DNA of 64,000 bases from an uncultured bacterium (GTDB lineage Bacteria > Patescibacteriota > JACMRA01): the NCBI GenBank assembly GCA_963704645.1, contig OY969926.1, positions 608,001 through 672,000 on the forward strand, read 5' to 3'. The stretch's first letter is position 1. Every line of letters starts with the position of its first letter. The notes beneath the pieces were generated by a model. The model was not told the origin of the DNA. It was given only the letters and a program-made list of their open reading frames with translations, and made no database searches. A program made the position numbers and the translations under genes. This document shows positions 1,042-57,789 of this stretch, piece after piece.

Positions 1042-4000
1042 TCACATACCCATAACCACCACAGGTACATTGTGCTTTATGGCAAATTCCAATTCTTTTT
1101 GATGATTTGTTTTAATATCTTCATCTGTCATGCCTGGCTTTACTCGAATTAAAAGACCTGCCACTTCGTTTCTGATACTATTTAACTCATTAATTTCACC
1201 AGGAAAAGATATCTGTTCTGCTTTCTCTGGTTCATATCCATCTTTCTCCATTTTTTCTTGGTTGTTATAACTAATCAGCAGATTAGATAATCTTTCAATT
1301 ACACCTGTTAAATCTATATCATCTTTTGGGGATAAGGATTCAGGAAACTTGGAGTATTTTTGATAATAATTCAAGGCAATATTAAATTCTTCTATTTTAT
1401 CTGCAACTTCTAAAAACTTTTCTTTATCCACACCATCTGGTAAATCACCATCATGAAAATATTTTACAAGGTCTCTAGAACTCACTTCTTCTGCATTTGA
1501 TCCAAAAAACTCTGATTGGAGTATCTTAAATTTATGATATGCCATAACCTTTATTTTATTTTGTATCTGTTTTTCATTTGCAATTGTAGATAGAGTTTTT
1601 CCAGAAGCTGAAAAAGTGTCTTCTAAATCCACATTTACTGGAGTTGCTCGTAGTATCAAAGCATTTTGATTATTGCTAAATATTCTCATCCTAGAAGGAT
1701 CTGTAGAAGCATAAGTAGTGCAGAGCAATGAATCTACTTCTACTGCTCCTCTATCAAGTTTTGGTGATTTAGATGGATTATAATCTGCCCTCAATTCATT
1801 AGTAACGTGTAAATTTACACGGTAGCTACCACCTTCTCTTAAATCAATAAGTTGAACAGTTGACTGTTTTGATGTTCCATCAGGATTATTACCTTGATCT
1901 ACAGATAACTGTCTTTGGTTTGGATGCCTTAGAAGCTGGTCTACTTCGCTGATAACAGGGTAATTTAGATTTTCATAATATCGTATTATTGGTTTCAGTC
2001 CTTCAACTAGAGCTTCTCGATTTGGTTTATAGGAATCTATATACTGAAAGCTATCTTTGACTCTAAAACTATCCATTTCACCAAGTTTCATAGTCATATC
2101 TAGAAACTTTTCACTTCCAAGCCTAATTGCTAACTCATGTAGTTTCTCTTCATCCGGAAGTTTAAAATTAATGACTTCAGTTAACTTTGCAATTTCTTCT
2201 TTTAGATCTACCATATTTGGTATTTCTGCTTTCATTGAATAAGGTAAATTCAACCTATCACCGATTTGATAAGCCAACTTTACAGACTTGTATCCGTGAG
2301 AATCATCAGCTTGAGCTTCTCCCCTTTTTTGTGTTGTAGGTTTACCTAGGTCATGACTAAGGGCAGCAAGTGTCATTATAATTTTTTCCTCTTGACTGGC
2401 TTTTTGATAAATATTAGATCCTTGAACTGATTCTACAACTTTTAAGGTGTGTTGGAGTAAATTTTGATACTTATGATAATCATGCTGATATGGACCTGAT
2501 GGAGTTAGTTTTGTGTAAGGCGAGTTTTCAGGAAGATCATATTTACCAGCAGATACGGTGTTTTCAGGCGCGAAATTAAGTAACTCTGGAAGTAAAATAC
2601 TCAATTCACTGTTTGGGTTCATGAGCTGTTTTGGCAATTCCTTGGGATCTTGTAAAATATCCAAAACTTTTTTTGTCGTGTTTGGAAGGTGCTGGAAAGC
2701 CATTGTTTGCATTCCTCCCTCAATGGGGATTCCAATAGGTTTATCGTCTAATGGATTAAAAGATTCCTCTACTCTTCCGATCGATAGCTCAGAACCAAAT
2801 CCTGGAATTCTAAGTACCGCTTTGACACGTTGCCAAGTCTGATTATTCATCGTTGAAAAATGAGCATCCATTTTGTTTAACACCTCTTGAGTTGCTTCAG
2901 GGTCAGCTCTCAAAGACTCCATTATTATATTTTTGATTCCATCTTGACCCTGAAATGAGTCAAAATGTTCACTACTATCTATTTTTGAAAATATATTGTC
3001 GACATAGTTTATAAAATCATCCTTAGCCGGTATACTTATTGTATACTTGTAACCGTAATTGTTTAAGACTGTTCCATTAAAATCAACAGCGAAATCTGGT
3101 GACAATGTTTTTAATAAATCAAGTTTCTGATTATAATTCATCCAGTTTTTCTCAGCAGCTATTTTTAAAAACGCAGATTGTAACTCTACTTTTTTGTTTT
3201 TCAACAAATCTAGAATAACCTCAGGATACTCTTGAAATACTAAGTGGACAATATCATGTATTTGCGAATCCGAAAATGCATAAATAGTGTCAACTAAGGC
3301 GTTCTCAACGTCATCTTTTTTATTTTTGAAGAAGTCTGTTTTGAATTCAGATGTTAGAGTGTTGAGGAAATCCATTAGGTTGCCTGGGCTCTTTGAAATC
3401 TTGTTAATCAATGCTTTTCCAACCTCGTCACTTTTATTGTTAAAGAAATTTACACTAAATTCAGAGTCTATTTTTGAAATATTTCTTAGCGATGAAGTAA
3501 AACTATTTCCATTTTCTGAAATCAGAGAAGCTATTTCGCTCTCCACAAAAGACCTTTTTTCTGTTAAAATATTTTGAATAATATTAGGAATTAAACCATA
3601 AAGACCGTTAATCAAATCAGAATTAGATAAATTGTCAATAATTTTTTTGGTAATTACTTCCTTGTTGCTCTCAAAAAGTTGTATAACGTAATCTGGATAA
3701 AGATTGTTAATACAATCTAGCATAACATTCTTTACTTCAGTCTTCTGAAATAATTTATCAATTAATTGCTTTTCATTATTAATTAATAAATTTTGTACAA
3801 ATTTAGGATTAGCTTTATTGAAAACCGCTAAAATATTTTTTGATGTATCGATTCTTAATAATATTAACCTTTCAAGTTCCACACGATTATCATTAATTAA
3901 TTCTTTTAGAATTGTAGGATTGCTGTGCTCCATCTTTTCGAAAAAACTATCTAGTGATTTAGGATTCTTTACTAATATATCTTTAAGGTTGGTGTAAATA

Positions 4001-5235
4001 TCTTCTTTGTTATCCATTAAATCAGATCCAAAATCAGGATCGATACTATTCAATATACTGATAAAATTTTTATAATCCCTACTATCATCACTAATTAATC
4101 TTTTTAAAATATCAGATAATTGCTTTTTTCGTTCGTAAACAAATTTTGTAGCATTTTCAGGATTAGCAAATTTGATAACTCTTAACAAAGGTATAATTTT
4201 TTTTAGACCTCGTTCCCCTCGATTAATAAATCCATCTAATTTTACAAATAGATCTGAAGAAATTTGATCTATGATTAACTTTGCATTTTCAGGAAGTGTT
4301 TTTTTTAAAAACCCGATCTTATCTAAAAAAAGACCTAGATTTTTATCTAATGATTCAACTAGATAATTTTTCAACTCCCCATCCCCCTCCTTCAAAAACC
4401 TATCTACAATCTCAGGATCAATTTCCCTACACAGATCAAATATTTTTGATGGGTCTGCGCTACCTTCCTTAAACGCCTGCATCATCACATCCATCATCTC
4501 TCGATCTGCAGATTCAGGATCTAAAGCACGCATATCTTCAAACATTTTGGATAGTTGAAGCCTTGCTGCTTCAAATTCGGTTTTTAGTTGCTTGACTTTG
4601 TTTATCAGATTTCCTATTTCTGTTGTTTTGCTTTCAGATTCAATACTTTCTTTGACACCCTCATTATTGTTTTCTGCTTGTTGAGGATTTTGTCTTTTTT
4701 CCAAGTCTTTACTTAGCTTTTCTAACTCTCCAAGATATTCCTCAAAGACAAGATCTAGCTTTTTTAAGAAATCATATTCTCCTATTTGACCTACTACTTC
4801 TTGTTTTTTGTCATTGTTATTTTCAATATGATTCGAAATTATTTTAAAGTCTAAACCATTAGTTTTTGAAATTATAATTAGATCTTTATATCCTTCTATT
4901 TTTAAATTATCCCCTAAGTTTTTTTTCACTTTACCATACCCTGACTCATTAAAATCATTTGAGATATTATCCAGTACGAATATTGCGTCTCGGATATATA
5001 AATCTAGCTTAGCTAAATGGTTTTCTACTTCTTCAGAGTTTTCTGATTTTAGAGATTCATCTGCGAATTCAATTTCTTCTGCATTTACAATCATTGCCAA
5101 TACCGAATCTTGATCTAATAATTCTTTTGTAGAATGTTTTTTTTCAGCTATATTCAAATTCTTTCCAATCTCTATTTTGGGTATTTGCAATTTACTAGAC
5201 TGGCTTAATAGTTGACTTTTAAAATCAGCGGTCAT
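1042..5235 (-). CDS. 1397-aa protein: coiled-coil/alpha-helical repeat N-terminal region, HD-domain hydrolase, uncharacterised C-terminal domain
   Basis: HTLKV...LAALSHDLGKP...HGYKS HD signature; recurring 'I(D/N)P(E/D)F' helical units. Confidence 0.75.
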   Translation of the reverse strand: MTADFKSQLLSQSSKLQIPKIEIGKNLNIAEKKHSTKELLDQDSVLAMIVNAEEIEFADESLKSENSEEVENHLAKLDLYIRDAIFVLDNISNDFNESGYGKVKKNLGDNLKIEGYKDLIIISKTNGLDFKIISNHIENNNDKKQEVVGQIGEYDFLKKLDLVFEEYLGELEKLSKDLEKRQNPQQAENNNEGVKESIESESKTTEIGNLINKVKQLKTEFEAARLQLSKMFEDMRALDPESADREMMDVMMQAFKEGSADPSKIFDLCREIDPEIVDRFLKEGDGELKNYLVESLDKNLGLFLDKIGFLKKTLPENAKLIIDQISSDLFVKLDGFINRGERGLKKIIPLLRVIKFANPENATKFVYERKKQLSDILKRLISDDSRDYKNFISILNSIDPDFGSDLMDNKEDIYTNLKDILVKNPKSLDSFFEKMEHSNPTILKELINDNRVELERLILLRIDTSKNILAVFNKANPKFVQNLLINNEKQLIDKLFQKTEVKNVMLDCINNLYPDYVIQLFESNKEVITKKIIDNLSNSDLINGLYGLIPNIIQNILTEKRSFVESEIASLISENGNSFTSSLRNISKIDSEFSVNFFNNKSDEVGKALINKISKSPGNLMDFLNTLTSEFKTDFFKNKKDDVENALVDTIYAFSDSQIHDIVHLVFQEYPEVILDLLKNKKVELQSAFLKIAAEKNWMNYNQKLDLLKTLSPDFAVDFNGTVLNNYGYKYTISIPAKDDFINYVDNIFSKIDSSEHFDSFQGQDGIKNIIMESLRADPEATQEVLNKMDAHFSTMNNQTWQRVKAVLRIPGFGSELSIGRVEESFNPLDDKPIGIPIEGGMQTMAFQHLPNTTKKVLDILQDPKELPKQLMNPNSELSILLPELLNFAPENTVSAGKYDLPENSPYTKLTPSGPYQHDYHKYQNLLQHTLKVVESVQGSNIYQKASQEEKIIMTLAALSHDLGKPTTQKRGEAQADDSHGYKSVKLAYQIGDRLNLPYSMKAEIPNMVDLKEEIAKLTEVINFKLPDEEKLHELAIRLGSEKFLDMTMKLGEMDSFRVKDSFQYIDSYKPNREALVEGLKPIIRYYENLNYPVISEVDQLLRHPNQRQLSVDQGNNPDGTSKQSTVQLIDLREGGSYRVNLHVTNELRADYNPSKSPKLDRGAVEVDSLLCTTYASTDPSRMRIFSNNQNALILRATPVNVDLEDTFSASGKTLSTIANEKQIQNKIKVMAYHKFKILQSEFFGSNAEEVSSRDLVKYFHDGDLPDGVDKEKFLEVADKIEEFNIALNYYQKYSKFPESLSPKDDIDLTGVIERLSNLLISYNNQEKMEKDGYEPEKAEQISFPGEINELNSIRNEVAGLLIRVKPGMTDEDIKTNHQKELEFAIKHNVPVVVMGM

Positions 5236-46692: not shown

Positions 46693-47208
46693 TTACATTA
46701 TAGTTGGTTCTACTTTTTTATTGTAGAATATATAAAATAATCCTAAATAAATTAGAGATGTAGCTATGCAAATCTCATTGGCATAAACAGTGGCGTAATT
46801 AAAACCTCCTGGCCACAATCCAAAGAAGTTAAAATTAGAAAGTCCAGCAAATATTAATATTAAAAGACTTGCACCGCTCTGTAAATAGGCATACCCCGTC
46901 TTTAAGTCTGTTAAATAAATTAGCAACTCTGCTAAGCTAACTGCTGACGAAATTGTCATTGATAGTGCCATGAAATAAAATAAACCTTGTGGGCTTAATA
47001 AATTGTAAGCACAGGTAGCGAAAATACCTAAGAAAAACAAGCTTACACTTTTCATGCCATTGTACTTTCCGCTGACGAAAAAATGATGAGTACAATATAT
47101 GTTTACTAATATGAAGGAAGCTACGCAGAACCATGAAATTGGCGATGTGCTTAGTACTATTAGCCAAAGATTATTTAGTTGTGCTGAATAGTTTAAACCA
47201 ACTGTCAT
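46693..47208 (-). CDS. Cassette gene 6, multi-TM membrane protein
   Basis: About five hydrophobic segments; ATG 47208 preceded by AGGA. Confidence 0.65.
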   Translation of the reverse strand: MTVGLNYSAQLNNLWLIVLSTSPISWFCVASFILVNIYCTHHFFVSGKYNGMKSVSLFFLGIFATCAYNLLSPQGLFYFMALSMTISSAVSLAELLIYLTDLKTGYAYLQSGASLLILIFAGLSNFNFFGLWPGGFNYATVYANEICIATSLIYLGLFYIFYNKKVEPTIM

Positions 47209-47369
47209 TTGTTTTGTCCTAAAATAGGTTAACTTCCTTTTTAAATCATAGAAAAGGGCTAATGTCAAAAATCTATTTCGTTTAATTAAATAACTAAAAA
47301 CAGCTTTATGAAACTTTGTTAGTTAATTAGAATTATCTTAATTATTTGCACAAGATTCTAGTAATAATA

Positions 47370-47445
47370 TTAAAAATTATACATGTGCAAGGGTTTTTGG
47401 ACAATAAAAAAAGCACCCTAACCATCGAACTAGGTTGGGTGTTTT
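47370..47445 (-). repeat. Cassette junction R6
   Basis: taaaaattatacatgtgcaagggtttttggacaataaaaaaagcaccc plus hairpin. Confidence 0.88.
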
Positions 47446-47452
47446 CTGGAGC

Positions 47453-47677
47453 TTAGTCCATTCCAATGAAATCTTTAACTCTCTGTGTCATTGCGTGATC
47501 AAGACTGGTTAGTTCGATTTCACCATCAACCTTTGCTGCTTCGCAATGAAACACAAGTTGACTTTCAGAACTGACTGATACTACAGTTCCAGCAGTAAGT
47601 GAAACACGTTCTCCACCTACTAGAACTGCATTTACAGTTTCTGTCATTCCAATATTTACTGCTTCTATAACTTGCAT
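47453..47677 (-). CDS. Cassette gene 7, 74-aa hypothetical protein
   Basis: ORF with GGAG SD, bounded by junctions R6 and R7. Confidence 0.65.
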   Translation of the reverse strand: MQVIEAVNIGMTETVNAVLVGGERVSLTAGTVVSVSSESQLVFHCEAAKVDGEIELTSLDHAMTQRVKDFIGMD

Positions 47678-47737
47678 AATAAACTTCTCTCCAACGTAAA
47701 TGTGTATGATGGTATTATACCGATCCTTGTAAGATAA

Positions 47738-47793
47738 ACAGAAAAGTTTAAACTAGGCAAGTAACTGAATAAACAAAGGTAATAAAAACCCTT
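47738..47793 (-). repeat. Cassette junction R7 (promoter half, degenerate terminator part)
   Basis: acagaaaagtttaaactaggcaag...taataaaaaccc. Confidence 0.6.
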
Positions 47794-47838
47794 TAATACT
47801 TGACTAAACTTACCACTAAAATCACTTTTAGGTTAATT

Positions 47839-50328
47839 ATGCCTTTGCCTTCTGCGTACAATCCTAAGGAATATGAATACCAAATTTACCAGGAATGGTT
47901 GAAGTTAAAGCTTGGATCTCCAGAGGTGCAGGAGGAAATTCAGGCTACCCCGAAACCTTTGGTTTCACCCCTTACCAGGGGTACTGGTGAGCTGGATTAT
48001 AACGATGTTGGTAATGCCAACAATGGCGGTGTGGTCGCCTCATCTACGGATACATACTCTGTTGTGGTGCCTCCGCCAAATCTGACTGGGGATTTGCATA
48101 TGGGACATGCTTTTGAGCATTATTTAATGGATACTTTGGTTCGAATTGCCCGTCAGGAAGGTAAAACAACTTTATATTACCCAGGGGTTGATCACGCTGG
48201 AATTCAGCTGGAAGGTGTTATAAATAAGTTGATAAATAAAGGTGAGTTTGATGAGCAAATTAAACAATTAGATAATCTTACTAGTAACCAAACCAATGCT
48301 AAAGTTTCTGACTTTTTTAATTTTGATACTGCAGATAGAGCTAACTTTTTAAAACAAAATTTTCCTGAAACTTGGCTACAATTTGCTTGGTCAAAAGTGC
48401 GTGTTTGGCGTGGTAACCAACTAAAACAAGCTGAAAAACTTGGCGATTCACCCGATTTTGACCGTTTACTTTTCACCCTAGATCCAAGAGCTGTGGATAT
48501 GGTAAACTATGCTTTTATTAAGTACTGGCAAGACGGTTTAATTCACAAAGGTTCCTATTTAATTAACTGGTCGGTAGCTTTGCAAACTGCTTTGTCTGAC
48601 GTTCCCGAAGATATTTCCCACGAAGAAAGGAAGGATCCGTTTGTTACTTTTGAGTATGTTAATCAAGGGTCTGTTGTTACATGGGTAGAAAACTCATCAA
48701 AGTTTAATGATGACAATAAAATTCGCATAATGAACAATGCAATAATGAGAATTAAGGTGGCAACAGTTAGGCCTGAAACTGTATTTGGGGATGTTGCTTT
48801 GGCTGTAAACAAGAATATCTTTAGAAATAAATTGCTAAGTTATGAAGACTCATCTTTTGGCAGATTAACTTCTCAAGATGTTGAAAATATTATCTATGAT
48901 ATTGAAAATGGTTATATAAAAATTAAATACATGATCAAAGGCTTGATCTCTAATATTAAATTAATTTTAGGAGAAGACGACGAAGTTGATCCAAACTTTG
49001 GAACGGGGGCTTTAAAAATTACGCCTGCTTCAGATATTGTAGATTATAATATTGCTGTTAAACATGGAATTTCCCATTTACCTCAGTCTGTTGGTAGAGA
49101 TGGAAAACTTACAGAAATCTGCGGCGAGTTTGCAGGTTTAACTGTAGAGCATGGTAGAATGGCAGTTATTAAAAGGTTAATTGAAGATGGTCATGTACCA
49201 ACAGTTGAAGGTTTTGAAGAAAACAGGGAAAGTGTGCAGAATAAACCTTCCGTAGAAAAATTATCTGACCCTGAATTTAGAAGTTTAAGCCTTGAAAAAC
49301 AGAAAGAATATTTGCAGAAAAACTATCCTCAATATCAAGTTGATTGGAATTATGTTCACAATGTTACAATTTGCGAACGCAGCAAGACAGTTGTAGAACC
49401 ATTAATTAGTGAAGAGTTTTTTGTAGATTATTACGCCAAGTTTAAATTTAACCCAAAGATTAATTCAAAAAATCAAAACACCAAAGTACCCCTGGTAAGG
49501 GGTGAAACCGTAGGTTTCGGGGTAGCAATTGGCCAGGAAACAAGCCTACAACAATTGGCTATTGCTGGAATTCATAAGACAAATTTCTTTCCTGAAGATT
49601 ATAAGGAAAGGGCTTTGAATTATTTTGAGACTATTAAAAATTGGTGTATTTCCCGTGATTTAATTTGGGGACATAATATGCCGGTTTGGTATAATTTAGA
49701 TGTGAATCCAGAGCGCAGGTTTTATTCGTTTAAGGAAATACAAACTCAAAATGGAAATGGAGACCAGGAGGTCTCCGCTACGGATCGATTCAAAATTCAG
49801 GTTGAAAAACCTGCTGAGCCTGGAAATTGGGTTCAAGAAACTAAAATTTTAGACACTTGGTTTAGTTCAACACTGTGGCCGCTTACAACGCTTAACTTTT
49901 TAGATTTTGCCAATGGTAAACAAGGAACTGATTTTGAAAAGTTTTACCCAACCCAAACTATGACTACTGCTAAGGAAATTTTCTATGCCTGGATTGTACG
50001 TATGATTATGACTGGAATGTACTTTGCTGGACAAACTCCGTTTGAAAATTATTTGGCTCACGCTTGGGTGTTAGACGATAAAGGTAAAAAAATGAGTAAA
50101 AGTTTAGGAAATGTAATTGATGTTGCCGATCAAATTGAAAAATATTCATCCGATGCTGTTCGTTTGGGTATGTTAGAAAAAAGTATTCCTGGAAGAAATA
50201 TTAGATTCGGTGGAAAATTAGGTGATGCAGCCAGCGAAAAATATCGTAATTTTGGGAATAAATTATGGAACGTAGCTAGGTTTTTGGAAGGGAAGGAAGG
50301 GGATATTGTAGGCAATACTATTATCTAG
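47839..50328 (+). CDS. valS: Valyl-tRNA synthetase, N-terminal/catalytic part (split gene)
   Basis: PPPNLTGDLHMGHA, DHAGI, ATVRPET, WCISR, DTWFSS, KMSKS; ends just after NKLWNVARF. Confidence 0.93.
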   Translation: MPLPSAYNPKEYEYQIYQEWLKLKLGSPEVQEEIQATPKPLVSPLTRGTGELDYNDVGNANNGGVVASSTDTYSVVVPPPNLTGDLHMGHAFEHYLMDTLVRIARQEGKTTLYYPGVDHAGIQLEGVINKLINKGEFDEQIKQLDNLTSNQTNAKVSDFFNFDTADRANFLKQNFPETWLQFAWSKVRVWRGNQLKQAEKLGDSPDFDRLLFTLDPRAVDMVNYAFIKYWQDGLIHKGSYLINWSVALQTALSDVPEDISHEERKDPFVTFEYVNQGSVVTWVENSSKFNDDNKIRIMNNAIMRIKVATVRPETVFGDVALAVNKNIFRNKLLSYEDSSFGRLTSQDVENIIYDIENGYIKIKYMIKGLISNIKLILGEDDEVDPNFGTGALKITPASDIVDYNIAVKHGISHLPQSVGRDGKLTEICGEFAGLTVEHGRMAVIKRLIEDGHVPTVEGFEENRESVQNKPSVEKLSDPEFRSLSLEKQKEYLQKNYPQYQVDWNYVHNVTICERSKTVVEPLISEEFFVDYYAKFKFNPKINSKNQNTKVPLVRGETVGFGVAIGQETSLQQLAIAGIHKTNFFPEDYKERALNYFETIKNWCISRDLIWGHNMPVWYNLDVNPERRFYSFKEIQTQNGNGDQEVSATDRFKIQVEKPAEPGNWVQETKILDTWFSSTLWPLTTLNFLDFANGKQGTDFEKFYPTQTMTTAKEIFYAWIVRMIMTGMYFAGQTPFENYLAHAWVLDDKGKKMSKSLGNVIDVADQIEKYSSDAVRLGMLEKSIPGRNIRFGGKLGDAASEKYRNFGNKLWNVARFLEGKEGDIVGNTII
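47945..47985 (+). repeat. REP-like family B copy, in frame inside valS
   Basis: ctaccccgaaacctttggtttcaccccttaccaggggtact (encodes TPKPLVSPLTRGT). Confidence 0.88.
49485..49525 (-). repeat. REP-like family B copy, inverted, in frame inside valS
   Basis: agtacccctggtaaggggtgaaaccgtaggtttcggggtag (encodes VPLVRGETVGFGV). Confidence 0.88.
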
Positions 50329-50329
50329 A

Positions 50330-50370
50330 CTACCCCCAAGCCTTTGGTTTGAGCCCTAAATAGGGGTGCT
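50330..50370 (+). repeat. REP-like family B copy immediately after the valS-N stop
   Basis: ctacccccaagcctttggtttgagccctaaataggggtgct. Confidence 0.8.
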
Positions 50371-50513
50371 GTTAAAATAAATCTATTATCTCTGCTTACA
50401 AAACCACATCACAATGCTGCAAGATGTTCAGCCCTCTTTAGAGGGTAACTCTCTGGAGAAATTATGCCTAAAGTAATTTTAAGATAAAACAAAAACTTCA
50501 ATTCATTTCTAGT

Positions 50514-51059
50514 ATGATTCAACCTCACAAAATAATTTATTCTTCCAGAAGAACTTTGGCCTTAGAAGTAAAATCTACAGGACAGGTTATTGTGCGCTCT
50601 CCAAAACGAGTAGGGCTAGATTATATTCAAAAATTTGTAGCTGGTAGGCAAGATTGGCTTTCAAAAGTAATAGAAAAAATGTCTGCAAGAAAAGTTGTGT
50701 TAAAACCTTGGTCTAATTTTTCTGGGGCAGAATTACAACAAGCTAAGAAACAAGCAAAAGCTTTATTTGAAGAGGAGTTAAGGCAATATTCAAACCAAAT
50801 GGGTTGTGCTTATACGAAGTTAAGATTGTCTTCTGCTAAAACCAGATGGGGTTCTTGTTCTTCCAATGGAACAATTTCTATTAATTTTGCATTGTATTTT
50901 GCCCCAGTAGAGATTAGACATTATGTAATTATTCACGAACTGGCTCATGTGAAACACCCAAACCACAGTAGTAGGTTTTGGAATTTTGTGTATCAATTCG
51001 ACCCAATTTGGAAGACACATCGAGGTTGGTTGAAACAGCATGGCAGTTGGTTGGGGTAG
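50514..51059 (+). CDS. YgjP/SprT-like (DUF45) zinc metalloprotease-fold protein
   Basis: KTRWGSCS, YVIIHELAH..HPNHS..FW. Confidence 0.9.
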   Translation: MIQPHKIIYSSRRTLALEVKSTGQVIVRSPKRVGLDYIQKFVAGRQDWLSKVIEKMSARKVVLKPWSNFSGAELQQAKKQAKALFEEELRQYSNQMGCAYTKLRLSSAKTRWGSCSSNGTISINFALYFAPVEIRHYVIIHELAHVKHPNHSSRFWNFVYQFDPIWKTHRGWLKQHGSWLG

Positions 51060-51100
51060 AAATAGTTGTTTGAATGCAACACTTGTGATACACTGACGAT

Positions 51101-52441
51101 ATGGGACAAGAAATGCTTTCTGGAAAAGAAGCGGACTATAAAAACTATGATCCAATAAAAATTCAGCATTGGGTGGGCAATTACATTAAAGATCATTCTC
51201 AATTTTATGTGCCAGATTTAGGTGATGATACTGAGATTTTAAACATGTTTTCTTCTGCTAAAAAAGAACTAAGTTTAGAAGAAAAAAACTATGTACTTCA
51301 AATTCTAGATCCCTACTGTAACAGCGTTGACAGTAGAGTAAACCAATTTGATGCTGCCAGTAAATCTTTTACAACAGAGTACATAAATGGATTTGCAAAG
51401 CCTTTGGATACATTCAGAAGTTTTTATAATGAAGCAAGAAATAATCGTTTACTTTCTTCTCAAGATTTGTCCGAAATATTTAGTTTAGTTTCACCATATT
51501 TTTTAAAGGAAGCTTATGGAACTGTAAATTTATCCGACATAGATAAAGAAAAAATTGTTAGTGGGGCAGAATTTGTAGAATCTGGGAGGTTAAAAGAATT
51601 TTTAGATTCCAGTGCTAGAGAAAAAATTTTAGAAATAGTATTAAATAAAATTCCTGCAACGCACTGTATGAATAGCCAAAAACCCTTTAAATTGGTTAAT
51701 AATGGTCTTCATGAATTTCAAAATTTATCTGAAAAATATTCACTAGCCATTCCATCTTACGCAGATTATGAAACTTTGGGAAGACATAGACCCATGTTTA
51801 GTGATGGTATAAGATCGTCAGTGCATTGTTCACCATGCCCTGTTCCCAGCCATTTTGATGGTGATTGGACTAGGCCAGCTAAAATGGTAGTTGCTTCAAT
51901 GTTAGATCTCTATAAATGTAATCGTGAAAATTCAGAGTTAAGAAGCTTAAATGGGGTAGATATACAATTTGTTGTGTCAGAGACAGGTTTAAAAATCCCG
52001 TCAGGTTCTACTATCTATTTGTTTGGTTCAGATCAGACTTTAACTAATAGACAGCAAGCTTTAGCAGACAAAATTGGGCTTAATGTTATACAAATAAATC
52101 TTAATAATTATTCGGAAGAGGAGATTCAGCATGGTAAACCAAGGCAAGATGCTTACGAAAACAGTGTGGGAAAGGATGTTGCTAATAATATAAGGCGAGC
52201 TATTCCAGATTCCAAATGGGGTTGGGATTCTACTTTTGGATCTGACTTAGCTTTTTTAACAGGGGTGTCAACGGCTTCACATACTTCCTCACAACCTGAA
52301 AAATTTGATGAATTTGCAAACAAAATTCTTGAAGGTGGAGACATTGTTAATCAAGAGTTAGGTGCTTATCTTATGGCCAGTCCTATTCAGCTGGAGTGGT
52401 TGAACAAAGTTATTAATCATGTGGATAGATTAAAAAGTTAA
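51101..52441 (+). CDS. Hypothetical soluble protein
   Basis: 446-aa ORF with an R.SVH...V.SH..G.W motif. Confidence 0.7.
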   Translation: MGQEMLSGKEADYKNYDPIKIQHWVGNYIKDHSQFYVPDLGDDTEILNMFSSAKKELSLEEKNYVLQILDPYCNSVDSRVNQFDAASKSFTTEYINGFAKPLDTFRSFYNEARNNRLLSSQDLSEIFSLVSPYFLKEAYGTVNLSDIDKEKIVSGAEFVESGRLKEFLDSSAREKILEIVLNKIPATHCMNSQKPFKLVNNGLHEFQNLSEKYSLAIPSYADYETLGRHRPMFSDGIRSSVHCSPCPVPSHFDGDWTRPAKMVVASMLDLYKCNRENSELRSLNGVDIQFVVSETGLKIPSGSTIYLFGSDQTLTNRQQALADKIGLNVIQINLNNYSEEEIQHGKPRQDAYENSVGKDVANNIRRAIPDSKWGWDSTFGSDLAFLTGVSTASHTSSQPEKFDEFANKILEGGDIVNQELGAYLMASPIQLEWLNKVINHVDRLKS

Positions 52442-52543
52442 GATCAGATAAGTTTTAAATTTAGGCTGTTCCAACTTAAGAGTGTAGATAATTAAAATTT
52501 GACCTACTTTATAAATAGAATAACTAAACATCCACAATTAAAA

Positions 52544-53029
52544 ATGTCTCAACCTATAACATATCAAAATTTTTACACACAAGATATAAATCATTTAACT
52601 CTTGCCGATGCTTTAGAGCTTCACTATAAACTAAACCCTCAATTTACTAGGTGGAATAAATATGATGATGAATTACTTCAAAAAACTATGAAATCTCATG
52701 ATGTTTGCCATGTTGTTTTTGGTTGTAATACAAAATTATTAGGCGAATTTAGAGTAGAATTATTTACAGCCTTTGGCACTAATTTAACTAAAAGCGAATA
52801 CAGAAAGCTTGTTTCTAACCCAAAAATTTTAGGCGAACCACTGGCTATTGCTAAGCGTGTGGGCTATTTTAAGGTTATTACACTTATGCTTTTAAATTGG
52901 TATGAATTGTTTAGAATACCATATATTTCAAGTAAGATGAAGAAAAAATGGGCTGTATTTTCTGAAGATGATTATATGGATAAAACCCTTGGCGAAATTA
53001 GAGAAGAATTTGGTTTTAGATTAATATAG
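52544..53029 (+). CDS. Coq4-like HDxxH protein
   Basis: SHDVCHVVFGC.T...GE; C-terminal L.EIREEFG. Confidence 0.6.
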   Translation: MSQPITYQNFYTQDINHLTLADALELHYKLNPQFTRWNKYDDELLQKTMKSHDVCHVVFGCNTKLLGEFRVELFTAFGTNLTKSEYRKLVSNPKILGEPLAIAKRVGYFKVITLMLLNWYELFRIPYISSKMKKKWAVFSEDDYMDKTLGEIREEFGFRLI

Positions 53030-53139
53030 GTTAAATTTAGTTTGGGCTGTATTCTGCTTTTGAAATAATAAACTAAAATACTTTTCATCAAAAAATTGAT
53101 CCCACGTAGTTTGTGGGATTTTAAACTTGTATTAATTAT

Positions 53140-53334
53140 TTAGTTAGGAGGCTCATACAAAATCCAACCTGCGTATTTCCCTCCCCAAAAAATCCGATTT
53201 ACACATATGCACTTATAATATCTCTCATCATCGAATTTTTTAACCATATTTATATCATCAAATTCTTTAGTCAATAGCCAAGTTACGTTGCCATCTATGA
53301 ATTTTAATATTGCTTGCTCTACCTGTTCAACCAT
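53140..53334 (-). CDS. Small hypothetical protein
   Basis: 64-aa ORF followed by a hairpin (53099-53119) and T tract. Confidence 0.35.
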   Translation of the reverse strand: MVEQVEQAILKFIDGNVTWLLTKEFDDINMVKKFDDERYYKCICVNRIFWGGKYAGWILYEPPN

Positions 53335-53399
53335 CTTTGTTAAAACCTTTTTGTTTCAAATTTAGGCGTGCTTTTATAATAACATGTAAAATTCAGCAA

Positions 53400-55190
53400 A
53401 TGTCAAAAGTTGTTTTGTTTTCCAGTCCAATATTATATTTCATATTTGTACTCGTTTTTGTTATTCTATTAAGTAATAGTGCTTACTTCGTAAATCTTTT
53501 ATCTATAATTATACAACTTAAGAAAATAGACAATATTGTTAATTCATGCAACGATATGGGAATTATGTTGTTTTGGTTGAAAAAGCTTACACACTTTATT
53601 TCTATAAAAAGTAATCAAATAAAGTTACAGGTTTTAAATGCAGGAAAAGTTTTTGTTAAGTTTTACAAAAAAAGATTGGCTTTATCAATATTTTTAACAG
53701 TTTTAATAAGTTTTATACTTCTAACGCTTGTGTATTTGTTTGCCTTGCCAGCACCTTTACGCAATATTGAAAATTCAGAAACTGTGTCTTTAGAGCAATG
53801 CGGAATTTCAATAAAATATCCAAAATCTTCAGGATCTAGGGCAATAATTGCTTATAATCCATCCGATCTAGCCGAGTTTAACAAATCATATTTTTTTCCT
53901 AAAAATTATACACAGGCTATAATAATTGGTAACCCGCATGCTTTTCCAAGTTGGGCTAACAAAAAGCGAATTAGCAACATTTCTATTTATTGTTACAATG
54001 ATTATGGCTTAAACTTTATTAATAATTTTGCTAAAGATAGGGTAAGTCTAAGTTCCTCAGAGTTTAAAGAAATAACCAATTGGAGCATTTCTAACCAGAT
54101 TTTTAACGTCACGGAAGATATTTATCAGTCTGCCTCAAAATCTAGAACCACTCAAAAAATACATGAGGAGGAAAAATACAATTTTTCGTATAAAGGCAAA
54201 ACTTTCAATGTTCAAATTAATTACATAAATCCATCGGTTCAACAAAGAAGTTCTATTGAACCAGAGGGTTTGTTTGCTAGTCAAATAGATATTGGCTCTC
54301 TTCAAAAATCTACAGGCAACACAATAGATACTAAAACTTGGTTGGAAGAAGGTATTTCTCTTTCTAAAAAAGAATATAAGTACAATTTAGGTTTCTCTAA
54401 TAACAAAGCAGTGGATTATACCGAAACAATTTACGAAAAAAAAATTACAGATTGCAAATATAAAAGTGAAACTGATTGTAATTTAGAAGACCCAACCTAC
54501 ACTTTAAATGCTGTAGCAAGTTTTGATGGTAAACAGATTTTTTCTTTTAATAAATACTTTAGTAGTACTTATAGTTTTCTAAATAAAACTCCTGAATTAA
54601 ATTCTTATTTTAATTACAAATTAATTAACAGTAATAATTTTTATGCAATTCACCAAATTAATGAGAGTGGTTACAGTCAAAATAGGGCGGAAAAAACCCC
54701 AGGAGTATTCACTTACGCCGGGCAAACTTGGACAAGCTTCAACGATGGGAAAACTTGGATTAATAAACCAATTACTTTAGATGATAAGTATGCTACTGAC
54801 GATGTTGAAGATTCCCAAAAAGTATGCTTATCTAGGCTTGGAATAAATTTGTTTAATCAGGCAAATTCAGATCATTATAATTTTTGCAGCATTATGTACG
54901 GCTACTTCTTAAATTTAACCATCTATAATCAAGTAAAAAACAACATGCCTGTATTTTTAAGTGAAGCTGTGATTAATTCTAGACAGGATGATAATAGTAT
55001 TAATTTAGAATTAAAAGATGTATGTAATGCCAAGGGTGCGGGTGCAAACCCAATTAACAATGAAAAGACTGTAGATATGATGCAAAGATCGGACGTTGTG
55101 CAACATATGATTAACTACACCAAAGCAGAAAACAATAAAGACAAGCCATATAAAGGGGGGGGTTGTATGTTTAAAAAATTTGAAATATGA
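53400..55190 (+). CDS. Membrane-anchored exported hypothetical protein (start uncertain)
   Basis: Long ORF, N-terminal TMs, one Asp-box-like SFNDGKTW. Confidence 0.7.
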   Translation: MSKVVLFSSPILYFIFVLVFVILLSNSAYFVNLLSIIIQLKKIDNIVNSCNDMGIMLFWLKKLTHFISIKSNQIKLQVLNAGKVFVKFYKKRLALSIFLTVLISFILLTLVYLFALPAPLRNIENSETVSLEQCGISIKYPKSSGSRAIIAYNPSDLAEFNKSYFFPKNYTQAIIIGNPHAFPSWANKKRISNISIYCYNDYGLNFINNFAKDRVSLSSSEFKEITNWSISNQIFNVTEDIYQSASKSRTTQKIHEEEKYNFSYKGKTFNVQINYINPSVQQRSSIEPEGLFASQIDIGSLQKSTGNTIDTKTWLEEGISLSKKEYKYNLGFSNNKAVDYTETIYEKKITDCKYKSETDCNLEDPTYTLNAVASFDGKQIFSFNKYFSSTYSFLNKTPELNSYFNYKLINSNNFYAIHQINESGYSQNRAEKTPGVFTYAGQTWTSFNDGKTWINKPITLDDKYATDDVEDSQKVCLSRLGINLFNQANSDHYNFCSIMYGYFLNLTIYNQVKNNMPVFLSEAVINSRQDDNSINLELKDVCNAKGAGANPINNEKTVDMMQRSDVVQHMINYTKAENNKDKPYKGGGCMFKKFEI

Positions 55191-55357
55191 AAATAATGGT
55201 AAGTGGGAGATAGACTTCAAAGAAACATTTAATTCTTTTAAAGCTGATAATAATTTATAGCAGCTAGAAAAAGTTATTTGGGAAGAATATTTACAAACCG
55301 CAAAAAGTGTGATTTGAATTAAGAGCATAGTTTATTTTAAAGAAAAGGAGAAAGAAA

Positions 55358-55492
55358 ATGGAAAAGATAATTTGGACATTAGTGGCAATAACACTTATAG
55401 CATTTGGTGGGTTTGCTGTTTACCAGCAACTAAATTCGGGAGGCGTAAAAACAGATAATTCTGCCGCTTCTAAACTAATTTTTATAAAGTAG
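55358..55492 (+). CDS. 44-aa single-TM peptide (Flp-pilin-like size), not in the ORF track
   Basis: AAGGAG SD; MEKIIWTLVAITLIAFGGFAVYQQL...; terminator at 55502-55535. Confidence 0.65.
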   Translation: MEKIIWTLVAITLIAFGGFAVYQQLNSGGVKTDNSAASKLIFIK

Positions 55493-55569
55493 TGCAAGAC
55501 AAGTCCTAGCTATTTCCCATGCTAGGCTTTTTATTTGACCGAAAAGTCTTACTCAATCAAGAATAAAGT

Positions 55570-56376
55570 ATGAATTCTAATTTGCTATCTGCTCCTTCTA
55601 TATGGATTTTGAAGAAATTTATTGTTCTTCAGGCTAATTTAAAAAACAGCATTGCTGAATATGACATTGCCCATGCCATAGATGATTTGTATAAATTTTT
55701 ATGGAACGATTATGCCGATTGGTATGTGGAATATTTGAAGACAGATGCAACAGATTTGCTTTTTGCTAAAAACCTTTATCGACAATATGTGGTTCTGCTT
55801 TCTCCATATTCACCGTTTGAAACAGAAGCATTATGGTCAGACTTTTTTCAGGAAAAGAATTTAATAGCATTTGAAACTGTAGACGAAAATTGGCCTATAG
55901 AAATTCTTAGTAATCAAGATAATTTTGAAGCAAAGTTTGCGGAGTTTGAAAGTGTAGTAAATTTCATTCAAAGCATTCGTTCCCAAAAAGGTTTGTTTGG
56001 TTTAGACCCTGCTACCCAAATTGAAGTTTATTCTGTCTCGGAAATTCTTTCTAAATACCAAGACTTAATTTTTAAAATGGCTAAGGCAAAAATTTTAAAT
56101 GAAGAAAAAATGGCTTTGTACAATGTAAAATTAGACGCTTTTGAGTATGGTTTAGATATAAATGTACTTGTTAAAGATAAACCAGCTGAAATTGCCAGAA
56201 CCGAAAAGATTATCTTAGATTTGCAAAAACAAGCTTCTCAATTACAAATTCAATTAAACAATCAAGGCTTTTTAGTTTCAGCAGAAGAGGAAGTAATTTT
56301 AGAGAAAAAAGATCAAATCAAAAAACGCACTGAGGAAATAAAAGTTCAACAGGACAAGCTGCAATTTTTGAAGTAG
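55570..56376 (+). CDS. valS: Valyl-tRNA synthetase, C-terminal part (anticodon-binding + coiled-coil arm)
   Basis: WIL...LYKFLWNDYADWYVEYLK, LLSPYSPFETEALW, EIAR...L.N..F...A..EVI..K. Confidence 0.88.
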   Translation: MNSNLLSAPSIWILKKFIVLQANLKNSIAEYDIAHAIDDLYKFLWNDYADWYVEYLKTDATDLLFAKNLYRQYVVLLSPYSPFETEALWSDFFQEKNLIAFETVDENWPIEILSNQDNFEAKFAEFESVVNFIQSIRSQKGLFGLDPATQIEVYSVSEILSKYQDLIFKMAKAKILNEEKMALYNVKLDAFEYGLDINVLVKDKPAEIARTEKIILDLQKQASQLQIQLNNQGFLVSAEEEVILEKKDQIKKRTEEIKVQQDKLQFLK

Positions 56377-56421
56377 CTTGGAAATTGTTACTCCAAGACA
56401 GAACTTAAAAAATTCAAAATA

Positions 56422-56526
56422 CTATTTCATCCATCCTTTTTTTAGGAAATAATACCACATCAAGGCGTTAATTACTATTAAAAATATAAAGGTAACAACA
56501 AGTGAAATGGCAATGTCTAAAGTCAT
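56422..56526 (-). CDS. 34-aa single-TM peptide, not in the ORF track
   Basis: MTLDIAISLVVTFIFLIVINALMWYYFLKKGWMK; TTGACA upstream (56594-56589). Confidence 0.45.
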   Translation of the reverse strand: MTLDIAISLVVTFIFLIVINALMWYYFLKKGWMK

Positions 56527-56622
56527 GGTAGTTTTGATTGGGCTTTGAAATAAAGTTTATAATACACTAAAGCTTATGAAACTGTGCTTGTCAAAACTGC
56601 TTTTTTCGTGAATCTTTAGCTA

Positions 56623-57789
56623 ATGGTTTCGTATTTGCAATCTGTAGAAAAGTTGGTGGATAAGTCAATTTATGGTAGAGGTGTAAAAACTTTCTTGGAA
56701 GGTGGTGTTGTTGGTTTCACAAATTTAACCCTCGATTCTTGGCGTAAATATTCTGTGAAAGATTTAGAAACAGAAACAGTTTTAATTCCGCTTTTACACT
56801 TGGCTTTAAGTACAGCAAAATGGGATAAAGCAGAACTTGCAATAAAGGAAAGTGCAGGATGTTCTTGTAGATATTTTGAAGAATTTGGGACATGCAAACA
56901 TATAGTGGCGGTGTGCGCCGCTTTAGAACAAGAGTTCATTCGTCCAAACAAAATTGGATCTAAAAAGCAAGAAATTCAAAGTAGTTTAGACACCTTATTT
57001 CAGTTTAATAATAATCAGGAGCAGCGAGAATGGCTTAATAAAATTTATCAATATTTTGAAAGAAATAGGTCTAGTTTATTCCCCTGGATTAGCCAAATTG
57101 TTAAAGCAACCAGCACCGAAAACACTCCATTCAACAGTAGTGATAGTGTAAATAACATCGAAAATAGATACCAAGAATTTTGGGAAGGCTTAAAGCAAAT
57201 GTGCCAAAAAGCTACTGAAGACTTTGATCAAGAAAAGAAATTGTGTGGTTTAATTGCAGATTCTTTAATTACGGGAAGTGTGGTTTGGTGGAACTTTTGG
57301 TTAGATATTTTACCAAGTTTGCACCCAACAAATTTAATAAAAGTACTTACGGAACTTTGGTTTCAGGGTTACACTTTGCAGCATTTATTTCAGCCAGAAT
57401 TAAACCAATATATTCAAGATAAACCAGCTTTAGCCAATCAAATTTTAGAGAAATTACAGCAATACCCTAATTCAGAAAAGTTGCAAGTTCAGTTTGCTTT
57501 GCAAATTAAAATGAGAGATTGGTTGGAAAAAAACATTGTTAATTTAGACCCACAATCATTAATACAAATGGCCGTTGCTTTCCCCGATTTACTTGAACAA
57601 ATTGAACTTGTTTTGTTTAATAACTTAAAAATATGGGCAGACTTTTTAAACCCAACTGGAACGGAAGAGTTGAAAAAGATTATGCAAAGCTGGCGAACTA
57701 ACATTGGTGATACTATGGAATATCAAAATTTAAAAACTTATTTAAAACAAAATTACCCAAAAAGAAAAAGCCTATGGAGCGATTTATAA
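56623..57789 (+). CDS. SWIM zinc-finger protein
   Basis: CSC.YF...GTCKHIVAV. Confidence 0.8.
   Translation: MVSYLQSVEKLVDKSIYGRGVKTFLEGGVVGFTNLTLDSWRKYSVKDLETETVLIPLLHLALSTAKWDKAELAIKESAGCSCRYFEEFGTCKHIVAVCAALEQEFIRPNKIGSKKQEIQSSLDTLFQFNNNQEQREWLNKIYQYFERNRSSLFPWISQIVKATSTENTPFNSSDSVNNIENRYQEFWEGLKQMCQKATEDFDQEKKLCGLIADSLITGSVVWWNFWLDILPSLHPTNLIKVLTELWFQGYTLQHLFQPELNQYIQDKPALANQILEKLQQYPNSEKLQVQFALQIKMRDWLEKNIVNLDPQSLIQMAVAFPDLLEQIELVLFNNLKIWADFLNPTGTEELKKIMQSWRTNIGDTMEYQNLKTYLKQNYPKRKSLWSDL

What the first reader, a model, noticed from the sequence alone, without database searches (positions are those of the whole stretch)
47839..56376. Valyl-tRNA synthetase split into two separately promoted genes
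Seen: valS-N stops just after NKLWNVARF; the continuation (WIL...YADWYVE...coiled-coil arm) is a separate ORF 5.2 kb downstream, with about six unrelated ORFs between. valS-C has TTGACC exactly 35 nt before its ATG, like other leaderless genes here, and a terminator upstream. A family B palindrome starts 1 bp after the valS-N stop. Established: bacterial ValRS is normally one chain; split synthetases are known for Aquifex LeuRS and Nanoarchaeum AlaRS. Inference: a functional heterodimeric ValRS, possibly created by repeat insertion in a surface loop followed by recombination.
Basis: partly seen in the sequence, partly recalled or inferred. Interest (0 to 1): 0.75.

Follow-up and report, generated by a model that had tools for sequence, protein, structure and literature searches.

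The report
Valyl-tRNA synthetase encoded as two genes
In this small-genome uncultured bacterium and many of its relatives, the essential enzyme that loads valine onto tRNA is encoded as two separate, conserved genes that probably reassemble into one working enzyme, a natural split apparently not described before for this synthetase.

Summary
valS-N (47839-50328, 829 aa) holds the catalytic core and the editing domain. It stops 12 residues after NKLWNVARFLE. valS-C (55570-56376, 268 aa) holds the rest of the anticodon-binding bundle and the coiled-coil arm, 5241 nt downstream on the same strand.

The closed 1.27 Mb genome has no other valS. Misassembly is very unlikely. The C part is its own 265-329 aa frame in 16 of 26 species genomes of the family, always broken in the same loop. 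In 12 of these, the N frame also ends at a stop inside a contig.

Both halves are under purifying selection (dN/dS 0.15 and 0.11). All ValRS motifs are intact. valS-C carries the genome-wide leaderless promoter signature. A complex prediction docks the last N-chain helix into the C-chain bundle (0.79 against 0.00 for controls). That pass may reflect memory of solved single-chain ValRS.

The best reading is a functional two-chain ValRS.

Relatives also split ValRS at three other sites (up to four pieces), and they split LeuRS. Split and fused states changed at least 3-4 times.

The parts
47800..47805 (+). TTGACT, a -35-like box 39 nt before the valS-N ATG
   Evidence: Read directly. Distances 35-41 from TTGAC to an ATG are enriched for long ORFs genome-wide. 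This is a consensus match only.
47839..50328 (+). valS-N, 829 aa: Rossmann catalytic core (HIGH and KMSKS motifs), CP1 editing domain, and the first helix of the anticodon-binding bundle. Stop codon is TAG.
   Evidence: It aligns to residues 1-589 of T. thermophilus ValRS (1GAX). The PPPNxTGxLHMGH, TVRPETVF, GTGALKxTPAxD and KMSKS motifs are all present.
47945..47985 (+). In-frame copy of the genome's palindromic repeat inside valS-N; it encodes residues 36-49
49479..49503 (-). Partial reverse copy of the repeat's second hairpin inside valS-N; it encodes KVPLVRG on the + strand
   Evidence: Terminator-like hits, compared by eye with the repeat copies
50329..50367 (+). 39-nt double-hairpin repeat element immediately after the valS-N stop codon
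   Evidence: The same element sits at the same place in the same-genus genome G001 (92% identity).
50514..51059 (+). YgjP-like metallopeptidase gene (181 aa), the conserved downstream neighbour of valS-N
   Evidence: Pfam PF01863, E 1.7e-45. It lies directly after valS-N in G001, G002 and G019, and in the spacer of G013. dN/dS is 0.07.
51101..55190 (+). Three spacer ORFs: 446 aa (51101-52441), 176 aa (52499-53029) and 626 aa (53310-55190). No confident family, and none has a homologue in the G001 spacer.
55359..55493 (+). Small 44-aa ORF with an AAAGGAG ribosome-binding site upstream
   Evidence: Read directly
55505..55534 (+). Hairpin plus T-run, terminator-like, upstream of the valS-C promoter
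   Evidence: weak: z -1.5
55535..55564 (+). Promoter-like site: TTGACC, 18-nt spacer, AAGAAT, ending 5 nt before the ATG (leaderless layout)
   Evidence: 9 of 12 consensus positions; genome-wide peak at distance 35. The same TTGAC at -35 is seen in G001 and G002.
55570..56376 (+). valS-C, 268 aa: the remaining helices of the anticodon-binding bundle, the anticodon-stem-binding region and the C-terminal coiled-coil arm
   Evidence: residues 31-258 align to 1GAX residues 628-852. dN/dS is 0.11.

Best explanation
The only valyl-tRNA synthetase of this bacterium is made from two separately transcribed genes. ValS-N carries amino-acid activation, transfer and editing. ValS-C carries anticodon reading and the coiled-coil tRNA arm.

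The break lies in the loop after the first helix of the anticodon-binding helical bundle, at about residue 590-600 of T. thermophilus ValRS. That helix (N-chain residues about 802-823) stays on ValS-N. It is inferred to insert into the bundle formed by ValS-C residues about 30-92. This would rebuild the normal fold non-covalently as an alpha-beta heterodimer that charges tRNA-Val like a one-chain enzyme.

Shown: gene anatomy, uniqueness in the genome, conservation across species, purifying selection, and independent start and promoter signals. Inferred: assembly of the two chains and enzymatic activity.

The arrangement is old. It is shared by 16 of 26 species of the family. Its state (split or fused) changed at least 3-4 times.
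For: (1) Anatomy. The two ORFs tile the valS model without overlap: 26-580 and 592-857 of 860 positions. They match 1GAX residues 1-589 and 628-852. The HIGH, KMSKS and editing motifs are intact.

(2) No alternative enzyme. The valS family and both halves match nothing else in the one-contig genome except ORFs of 1227, 1053 and 537 aa open frame. The first two score as IleRS (625.6 bits, cut-off 621.4) and LeuRS (875.9 bits, cut-off 548.4). The 537-aa one matches only weakly (E 9e-13) and was not named by a family scan.

(3) Not an assembly artefact.
- In the order's 27 species genomes, the C part lies in its own 265-329 aa open frame in 16, all in family f1.
- In 12 of these, the N frame also ends at a stop inside a contig at the same reference position, 953-959.
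- In the other 4 (G005, G016, G020, G041), the N end is cut by a contig end or was not found.
- Every break maps to one loop.
- RpoB is a single 1133-1164 aa frame in 24 of the 27 genomes, so these MAGs are not generally fragmented. It is cut in G004, G015 and G016.

(4) Selection. G000 against G001 gives dN/dS 0.15 for valS-N (809 codons, dS 0.95) and 0.11 for valS-C (267 codons, dS 1.40).

(5) Expression signals. valS-C has TTGACC at -35 from its ATG, which is the genome-wide leaderless signature. All 15 split C-halves examined have an ATG 4-15 codons before the conserved S.AS.WI motif. Seven of the 15 have TTGAC at -35 to -40.

(6) Gene calls elsewhere. The 5.8-billion-protein collection holds 25 stand-alone C-half proteins of 233-298 aa, several named valyl-tRNA synthetase by their source.

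(7) Complex prediction.
- Score 0.79, best of 3 controls 0.00.
- The mark was reached by 58 of 80 solved complexes and 2 of 110 mismatched pairs. These counts hold only roughly because my own alignments were used.
- The runs agree in at least 96% of contacts, and the partner's pLDDT is at least 86.
- The interface is chain-1 residues 237-258, the NKLWNVARF helix, on C-half residues 30-92.
Against: - No biochemical or expression data exist. No RNA run holding this DNA was listed.
- The complex pass can come from the model's memory of solved one-chain ValRS (1GAX). It shows likeness, not binding.
- dS is near saturation (0.95-1.4), so the dN/dS values are approximate.
- Each half scores below the curated valS cut-off on its own: 468.7 and 104.3 bits against 704.
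- Promoter-like hexamers are no more frequent in the region than in shuffles: 37 against 37.7.
- The upstream hairpin is weak, z -1.5.
- Genome completeness is estimated at 87% although the genome is a single contig. A missing replicon carrying an intact valS cannot be formally excluded.
Confidence: 0.85

Rival explanations
1. Decaying gene. The split valS is a pseudogene pair, and valine charging is supplied by a host, a partner, or another enzyme.
For: The genome is small (1.27 Mb). Its relatives also have 0.8-1.6 Mb genomes, which fits a dependent lifestyle. Each half is below the curated valS cut-off.
Against: - Both halves have no internal stops and keep all motifs.
- dN/dS is 0.11-0.15.
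- Both halves are kept in every genome of the order that was searched: C part in 27 of 27, and an N part matched in all 25 of the order's genomes included.
- The same break is conserved across at least 10 genera.
Confidence: 0.04
2. The halves are rejoined before use. Possible routes are excision of the intervening DNA (a skin-element-like rearrangement), RNA trans-splicing, or protein trans-splicing by a split intein.
For: In G000, G001, G009 and G013 the halves lie on one strand in the right order, 1.7-5.2 kb apart.
Against: - No recombinase, intein or endonuclease domain was found in the four large same-strand spacer ORFs scanned or the 64-aa antisense ORF; the 44-aa ORF was not scanned.
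- No Rfam family, including introns, matches 47000-57000 at E up to 0.1.
- The N tail after the last conserved helix is 12 residues with no Cys. The C head before the conserved motif is about 9 residues. Both are too short for intein halves (read directly).
- In 12 of the 16 split genomes the halves are on different contigs.
- valS-C has its own ATG and promoter signature.
Confidence: 0.03
3. Loose division of labour. ValS-N is the working synthetase on its own, and ValS-C acts in trans as a free tRNA-binding cofactor without forming a stable heterodimer.
For: Stand-alone tRNA-binding helpers of synthetases exist (Trbp111, Arc1p; these are titles in the reference list of PMC8887476). ValS-N holds all the catalytic and editing motifs.
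Against: ValS-N keeps one helix of the bundle that has no partner without ValS-C. The predicted interface is that helix packed into the C-chain bundle, with 81-82 contacts. It is established (recalled) knowledge that the anticodon is a major identity element for ValRS, which favours a fixed geometry.
Confidence: 0.07

Closest known systems
Aquifex aeolicus LeuRS alpha-beta heterodimer
   Same: It is a natural class Ia synthetase encoded by two genes whose products form an active heterodimer. The tRNA-binding part sits on the smaller chain. I read passages of PMC2377443, which cite Xu et al. 2002 J Biol Chem 277:41590.
   Different: It is a different enzyme. From recall, not from any call, the Aquifex break lies inside the catalytic body so that KMSKS is on the beta chain. 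Here KMSKS and one bundle helix stay on the large chain, and the break is in the anticodon-binding bundle. The split here is found across a whole family of uncultured bacteria and is polymorphic (split or fused) among genera.
Nanoarchaeum equitans split AlaRS
   Same: It is a natural split of a synthetase into two genes in a tiny-genome symbiont. [quoted passage not shown]
   Different: It is a class II enzyme in an archaeon, with a different domain boundary.
Artificially split class I synthetases (E. coli MetRS and IleRS; Schimmel laboratory, early 1990s)
   Same: Fragments cut in surface loops or at domain boundaries reassemble non-covalently into active enzyme. The present case, and the 3-4 piece forms in relatives, look like natural counterparts.
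   Different: Those are laboratory constructs.
One-chain bacterial ValRS (T. thermophilus, PDB 1GAX/1IVS)
   Same: The same domains in the same order, and the same motifs.
   Different: Here there are two polypeptides. The N chain also carries large insertions relative to 1GAX, at query residues about 24-71, 135-176, 263-304, 327-378 and 455-581.
Genes in pieces made by insertion of a free-standing gene (phage nrdA split by a homing endonuclease gene)
   Same: A coding sequence is interrupted by another gene, and the pieces stay collinear and functional.
   Different: No endonuclease was found here. The gene at the break is a YgjP-like metallopeptidase. This comparison is recalled, not read.

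Membership tests
Valyl-tRNA synthetase (class Ia) | Best family match is valS rather than ileS or leuS | tested here: met
   N half: valS models score 468.7 and 432.8 bits against 197 for ileS. C half: valS 104.3 bits against 20.2 for ileS.
Valyl-tRNA synthetase (class Ia) | HIGH and KMSKS signature motifs of the Rossmann core | tested here: met
   PPPNLTGDLHMGH and KMSKSLGN align to the same motifs of 1GAX.
Valyl-tRNA synthetase (class Ia) | CP1 editing domain with its conserved motifs | tested here: met
   ATVRPETVFGD and FGTGALKITPASDIVDY align to 1GAX residues 210-231 and 256-280. Which residues are catalytic is recalled, not tested.
Valyl-tRNA synthetase (class Ia) | Anticodon-binding helical domain and C-terminal coiled-coil arm | tested here: met
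   PF08264 (E 1.2e-18) and PF10458 (E 3.2e-07), both on valS-C.
Valyl-tRNA synthetase (class Ia) | Single polypeptide, and a score above the curated full-length cut-off | tested here: not met
   There are two ORFs 5241 nt apart. Each is under the 704-bit cut-off.
Valyl-tRNA synthetase (class Ia) | Charges tRNA-Val with valine | not testable with these tools
   This needs an aminoacylation assay.
Naturally heterodimeric (split) class I synthetase, Aquifex LeuRS type | Two separate genes that together cover one enzyme, with no intact copy elsewhere | tested here: met
Naturally heterodimeric (split) class I synthetase, Aquifex LeuRS type | The chains associate into an active complex | tested here: inconclusive
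   Prediction only. Score 0.79 against a best control of 0.00. The mark was reached by 58 of 80 solved complexes and 2 of 110 mismatched pairs. The pass may be memory of one-chain ValRS.
Split-intein trans-spliced protein | An N-intein of about 100 aa starting with Cys/Ser after the N-extein, and a C-intein of about 35 aa ending HN followed by Cys/Ser/Thr | tested here: not met
   The N tail is 12 residues without Cys. The C head is about 9 residues. No intein domain was found in Pfam.
Gene interrupted by an excisable element (skin-like) | A recombinase inside the element, with the halves always adjacent | tested here: not met
   No recombinase family was found in the four large same-strand spacer ORFs scanned or the 64-aa antisense ORF; the 44-aa ORF was not scanned. 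The halves are on different contigs in 12 of the 16 split genomes.
Intron-interrupted or trans-spliced gene | Group I or group II intron RNA structure at the break | tested here: not met
   No Rfam match in 47000-57000 at E up to 0.1.

The most novel reading that the evidence does not exclude
In this order of small-genome bacteria, class Ia synthetases are true 'genes in pieces'.

- ValRS is assembled from 2, 3 or even 4 separately encoded modules. They are cut at four recurrent domain-boundary loops, at about G000 residues 143-163, 456-480, 690-696 and 823.
- LeuRS is cut in several genera as well.
- The N|C break of ValRS has been made and undone repeatedly. The conserved order valS-N, then a YgjP-like gene, then valS-C in three clades points to one old insertion into the loop, followed by re-fusions by deletion or by replacement with fused copies.

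This would be a natural, evolving counterpart of the laboratory finding that class I synthetases reassemble from fragments. It would also be a rare case of reversible gene fission in an essential enzyme.
Probability: 0.5. Interest if true: 0.78.

Novelty: new variant of a known kind. Interest (0 to 1): 0.66.

Why it matters
Naturally split synthetases are rare and have served as models for how these modular enzymes were built. The textbook cases are Aquifex LeuRS and Nanoarchaeum AlaRS. I found no report of a split ValRS in three full-text searches.

This split is not a single oddity. It is conserved under selection across many genera, with fused relatives available as built-in controls. It also comes with further natural break points in ValRS and LeuRS. 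Three questions become directly testable:
- Which domain boundaries of a class Ia synthetase tolerate fission?
- How does a single helix left on one chain drive reassembly?
- Can gene fission in an essential gene be reversed?

There is a practical consequence as well. Each half falls below curated full-length cut-offs, so automatic annotation and marker-based completeness estimates may miss or mislabel valS in this lineage.

Tried and rejected
Read support. The look-up of sequencing runs listed one DNA run with a 0.13 share of the words and no RNA holder. Read laying on it placed seven contigs of about 200 nt (six of them at least 99% alike). None bridges the valS-N stop, the spacer junctions or the valS-C start. 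This says nothing on assembly or expression.

Alternative genetic code. The genome gives 83% coding in ORFs of at least 100 aa under table 11, and RpoB is one frame, so no recoding is needed.

Mobile or defence origin of the spacer. PADLOC and NCBIfam gave nothing for the four large same-strand spacer ORFs (YgjP-like, 446, 176, 626 aa) or the downstream SWIM protein. Pfam gave only YgjP-like, a weak Coq4 hit and SWIM.

Synteny. Of 11 G000 ORFs around the locus, only the YgjP-like gene has a homologue in any fetched valS locus of relatives.

Census by length. In the 1.84-billion-protein library, many hits of 250-400 aa turned out to start at the M of KMSKS or at odd places. They cannot be told apart from fragments of cut genes, so I drew no count from them. 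A few (P0073, P0075, P0079, P0092, P0101) start in the same loop as valS-C but belong to distant lineages.

Apparent breaks that are only contig ends. These were not counted as splits: G004 and G011 near residue 456, the N ends of G016 and G020, and the partial N parts of G005 and G041.

One origin of the split. Holding the 15 split genomes together as one clade on the RpoB tree is rejected (log-likelihood 218.7 lower, p-AU 0.0003). The group was named after the tree had been seen.

Taxon name. The only named close record (L042, 76% identical C half) is labelled 'MAG: Bdellovibrionales bacterium'. The tool's phylum holds genomes of 0.4-2.1 Mb, which looks more like a candidate-phyla-radiation group. 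I did not settle this.

Supplementary files of papers were not consulted.

Full report
WHAT IS THERE. The window is positions 608001-672000 of a one-contig genome of 1,272,640 bases with 33% G+C. On the + strand, an ORF runs from the ATG at 47839 to the TAG at 50326-50328 (829 aa). It ends 12 residues after NKLWNVARFLE. A second + strand ORF, 55570-56376 (268 aa), starts 5241 nt further on. Pfam calls the first tRNA-synt_1. It calls the second Anticodon_1 plus the ValRS tRNA-binding arm. In NCBIfam both match valS models best, and they tile the 860-position model end to end (26-580 and 592-857). Each is below the full-length cut-off.

Against T. thermophilus ValRS (1GAX), the N chain aligns to residues 1-589. 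The HIGH, KMSKS and editing motifs are in place, and there are several large insertions. The C chain aligns from its residue 31 to residues 628-852. The break therefore lies at about residue 590-600 of that enzyme, in the loop after the first helix of the anticodon-binding bundle.

IS IT REAL? Both halves and the valS family model match nothing else in the genome except three other class I enzymes. Two of these score as IleRS and LeuRS above their curated cut-offs, each in one chain.

The order to which the genome belongs holds 27 species genomes in the collection, 26 of them in one family. The C part was found in all 27. It lies in an open frame of only 265-329 aa in 16 genomes, all in the family. 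It lies in a longer frame in 11.

I fetched the loci and mapped every stop-to-stop frame on a fused relative. In 12 of the 16 split genomes, the N frame also ends at a stop inside a contig at the same reference position (953-959). In the other four, the N end is cut by a contig end or was not found. An alignment shows that every break falls in the same loop, between ...ARF(L/F)E... and ...S.AS.WI....

In G001 (same genus), G009 and G013, the halves lie on one contig in the same order and strand, 1740, 3349 and 3015 nt apart. In the rest they are on different contigs. As a control for MAG quality, RpoB is one frame of 1133-1164 aa in 24 of the 27 genomes. In a sample of 301 genomes of the phylum, all but three of the roughly 130 listed matches from outside the order lie in frames of 699-1358 aa. 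The split is therefore a trait of this family.

IS IT USED? Between G000 and G001, dN/dS is 0.15 for valS-N and 0.11 for valS-C, with dS near saturation. valS-C has TTGACC exactly 35 nt before its ATG and an AAGAAT box ending 5 nt before it. Across the genome, TTGAC at that exact distance from an ATG occurs 80 times, and 64 of these ATGs open long ORFs. This is far above neighbouring distances, so it is the organism's leaderless promoter layout. valS-N has TTGACT 39 nt before its ATG, inside the enriched range. All 15 split C-halves examined have an ATG 4-15 codons before the conserved motif, and seven have TTGAC at -35 to -40. The large protein collection holds 25 stand-alone C-half proteins of 233-298 aa.

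HOW IT PROBABLY WORKS. I folded N-chain residues 566-829 together with the C chain, each with a 19-row alignment. The score was 0.79, with 0.00 as the best of three controls. This mark was reached by 58 of 80 solved complexes and 2 of 110 mismatched pairs. The runs agree in at least 96% of contacts, and the partner's pLDDT is at least 86. The interface is the last N-chain helix (residues about 802-823) packed against C-chain residues 30-92. This amounts to completing the helical bundle across two chains. Because one-chain ValRS structures are solved, the pass may be memory and shows likeness only. The inferred mechanism is a non-covalent alpha-beta ValRS. No intein, intron or recombinase signal supports rejoining.

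HOW IT AROSE. The repeat is real. It is a 39-nt double hairpin directly after the stop, with 18 copies of its core in the genome, 15 of them intergenic. It also occurs in frame inside valS-N at 47945-47985, and partly at 49479-49503. G001 has an extra in-frame copy that G000 lacks. This resembles the Rickettsia palindromic elements (recalled). Among all fetched loci, however, the repeat was found only in this genus, while the split spans at least 10 genera.

What the split loci do share is a YgjP-like metallopeptidase gene. It lies directly after valS-N in G000, G001, G002 and G019, and inside the spacer in G013. In all fused genomes and in the other split ones, the single YgjP-like gene lies on another contig. 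No other flanking gene is shared.

On a ValRS tree, the split state needs at least 3 changes. On an RpoB tree it needs at least 4. A single split clade is rejected (p-AU 0.0003). So there are two possibilities. The loop may have been cut several times. Or, as the shared YgjP neighbour suggests, it was cut once and later re-fused or replaced in several lines. Fused G007 and G021 carry an insertion of about 80 residues in exactly this loop. I cannot polarise the events.

WIDER PATTERN. Relatives cut ValRS elsewhere too.
- After the HIGH segment: G009 and G014.
- After the editing domain: G006, G012 and G025.
- Before the KMSKS half: G012 and G025.
G012 has four pieces on four contigs. G025 has three collinear pieces on one contig, with NUDIX, HAD and Ham1-like genes between them. 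None of these five genomes has an intact valS. LeuRS, which is one chain in G000 and G001, is in two pieces on one contig in G002 and G019, and it appears to be in pieces in G005, G009, G014 and G025.

LITERATURE. Three full-text searches found no split ValRS. For the known natural splits I read passages on Aquifex LeuRS (PMC2377443) and on N. equitans AlaRS (PMC8887476).

VERDICT. The proposed origin is not supported. This is a new variant of a known kind, with a broader genes-in-pieces pattern that deserves follow-up.

Noticed in passing
Relatives: L091 and L039 (G009); L077 and L078 (G014); L065 and L066 (G006); L093, L074, L075 and L076 (G012); L041 (G025): ValRS is cut at three further sites in relatives, at about G000 residues 143-163, 456-480 and 690-696. 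G012 has four stop-bounded pieces on four contigs. G025 has three collinear pieces on one 49-kb contig with ordinary genes between them. No intact valS was found in these five genomes.
   Followed up: partly
G002:C1:53011-57522; G019:C9:119259-124791; also G005, G009, G014 and G025: LeuRS is one chain in G000 and G001. In G002 and G019 it is in two open frames about 1.6 kb apart on one contig, with the break near residue 650. It appears to be in 2-3 pieces in G005, G009, G014 and G025; those were not checked against contig ends. IleRS looks whole: 1225 aa in G000, and frames of 1221-1266 aa in four relatives that were taken to be IleRS from their size and match pattern, not from a family scan.
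   Followed up: partly
window 47945-47985 and 49479-49503; L038 7847-7885: Copies of the genome's palindromic repeat lie in frame inside valS-N and add short peptides (ATPKPLVSPLTRGT, KVPLVRG). G001 has an extra in-frame copy that is absent from G000. The element has therefore inserted into this coding sequence recently, as Rickettsia palindromic elements do (that comparison is recalled).
   Followed up: partly
whole genome (G000): There is a sharp genome-wide signature of leaderless genes. TTGAC exactly 35 nt before an ATG occurs 80 times, and 64 of those open ORFs of at least 100 aa. Other distances show about 12-30 sites. Genes led by a Shine-Dalgarno sequence also exist, for example AAAGGAG before the small ORF at 55359.
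   Followed up: yes
window 50514-51059; L059 4160-4708; L084 978-1535; L040 5274-5897: A single-copy YgjP-like metallopeptidase gene sits directly after valS-N in G000, G001, G002 and G019, and in the spacer of G013. These represent three clades. It lies elsewhere in the other genomes where it was found, and no other synteny is kept. The reason for this linkage is unknown.
   Followed up: partly
L080 (G015:C49), frames 1452-2808 and 2811-4410: In G015, valS is two abutting frames separated by a single in-frame TAG. This could be a sequencing error, a real break or read-through.
   Followed up: no
L087 (G022:C8:2419-2622): A 74-aa fragment similar to residues 5-72 of the C half (46% identity, one internal TAA) lies apart from the real valS-C of G022. 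It is a possible relic of a duplicated copy.
   Followed up: no
window 51101-52441 and 53310-55190: Two large spacer ORFs (446 and 626 aa) have no family in Pfam, NCBIfam or PADLOC, and no homologue in the G001 spacer. The space between the halves gains and loses genes.
   Followed up: partly
L067 (G007) and L086 (G021), alignment columns 2140-2240: The fused ValRS of G007 and G021 carries an insertion of about 80 residues in exactly the loop where other genera are split. It may be a trace of a former spacer or a precursor of a break.
   Followed up: no
proteins P0073, P0075, P0079, P0092 and P0101: Distantly related proteins of 258-289 aa in the metagenome library begin in the same loop as valS-C. 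They may be independent splits in other lineages or fragments of cut genes. Their context could not be fetched.
   Followed up: no
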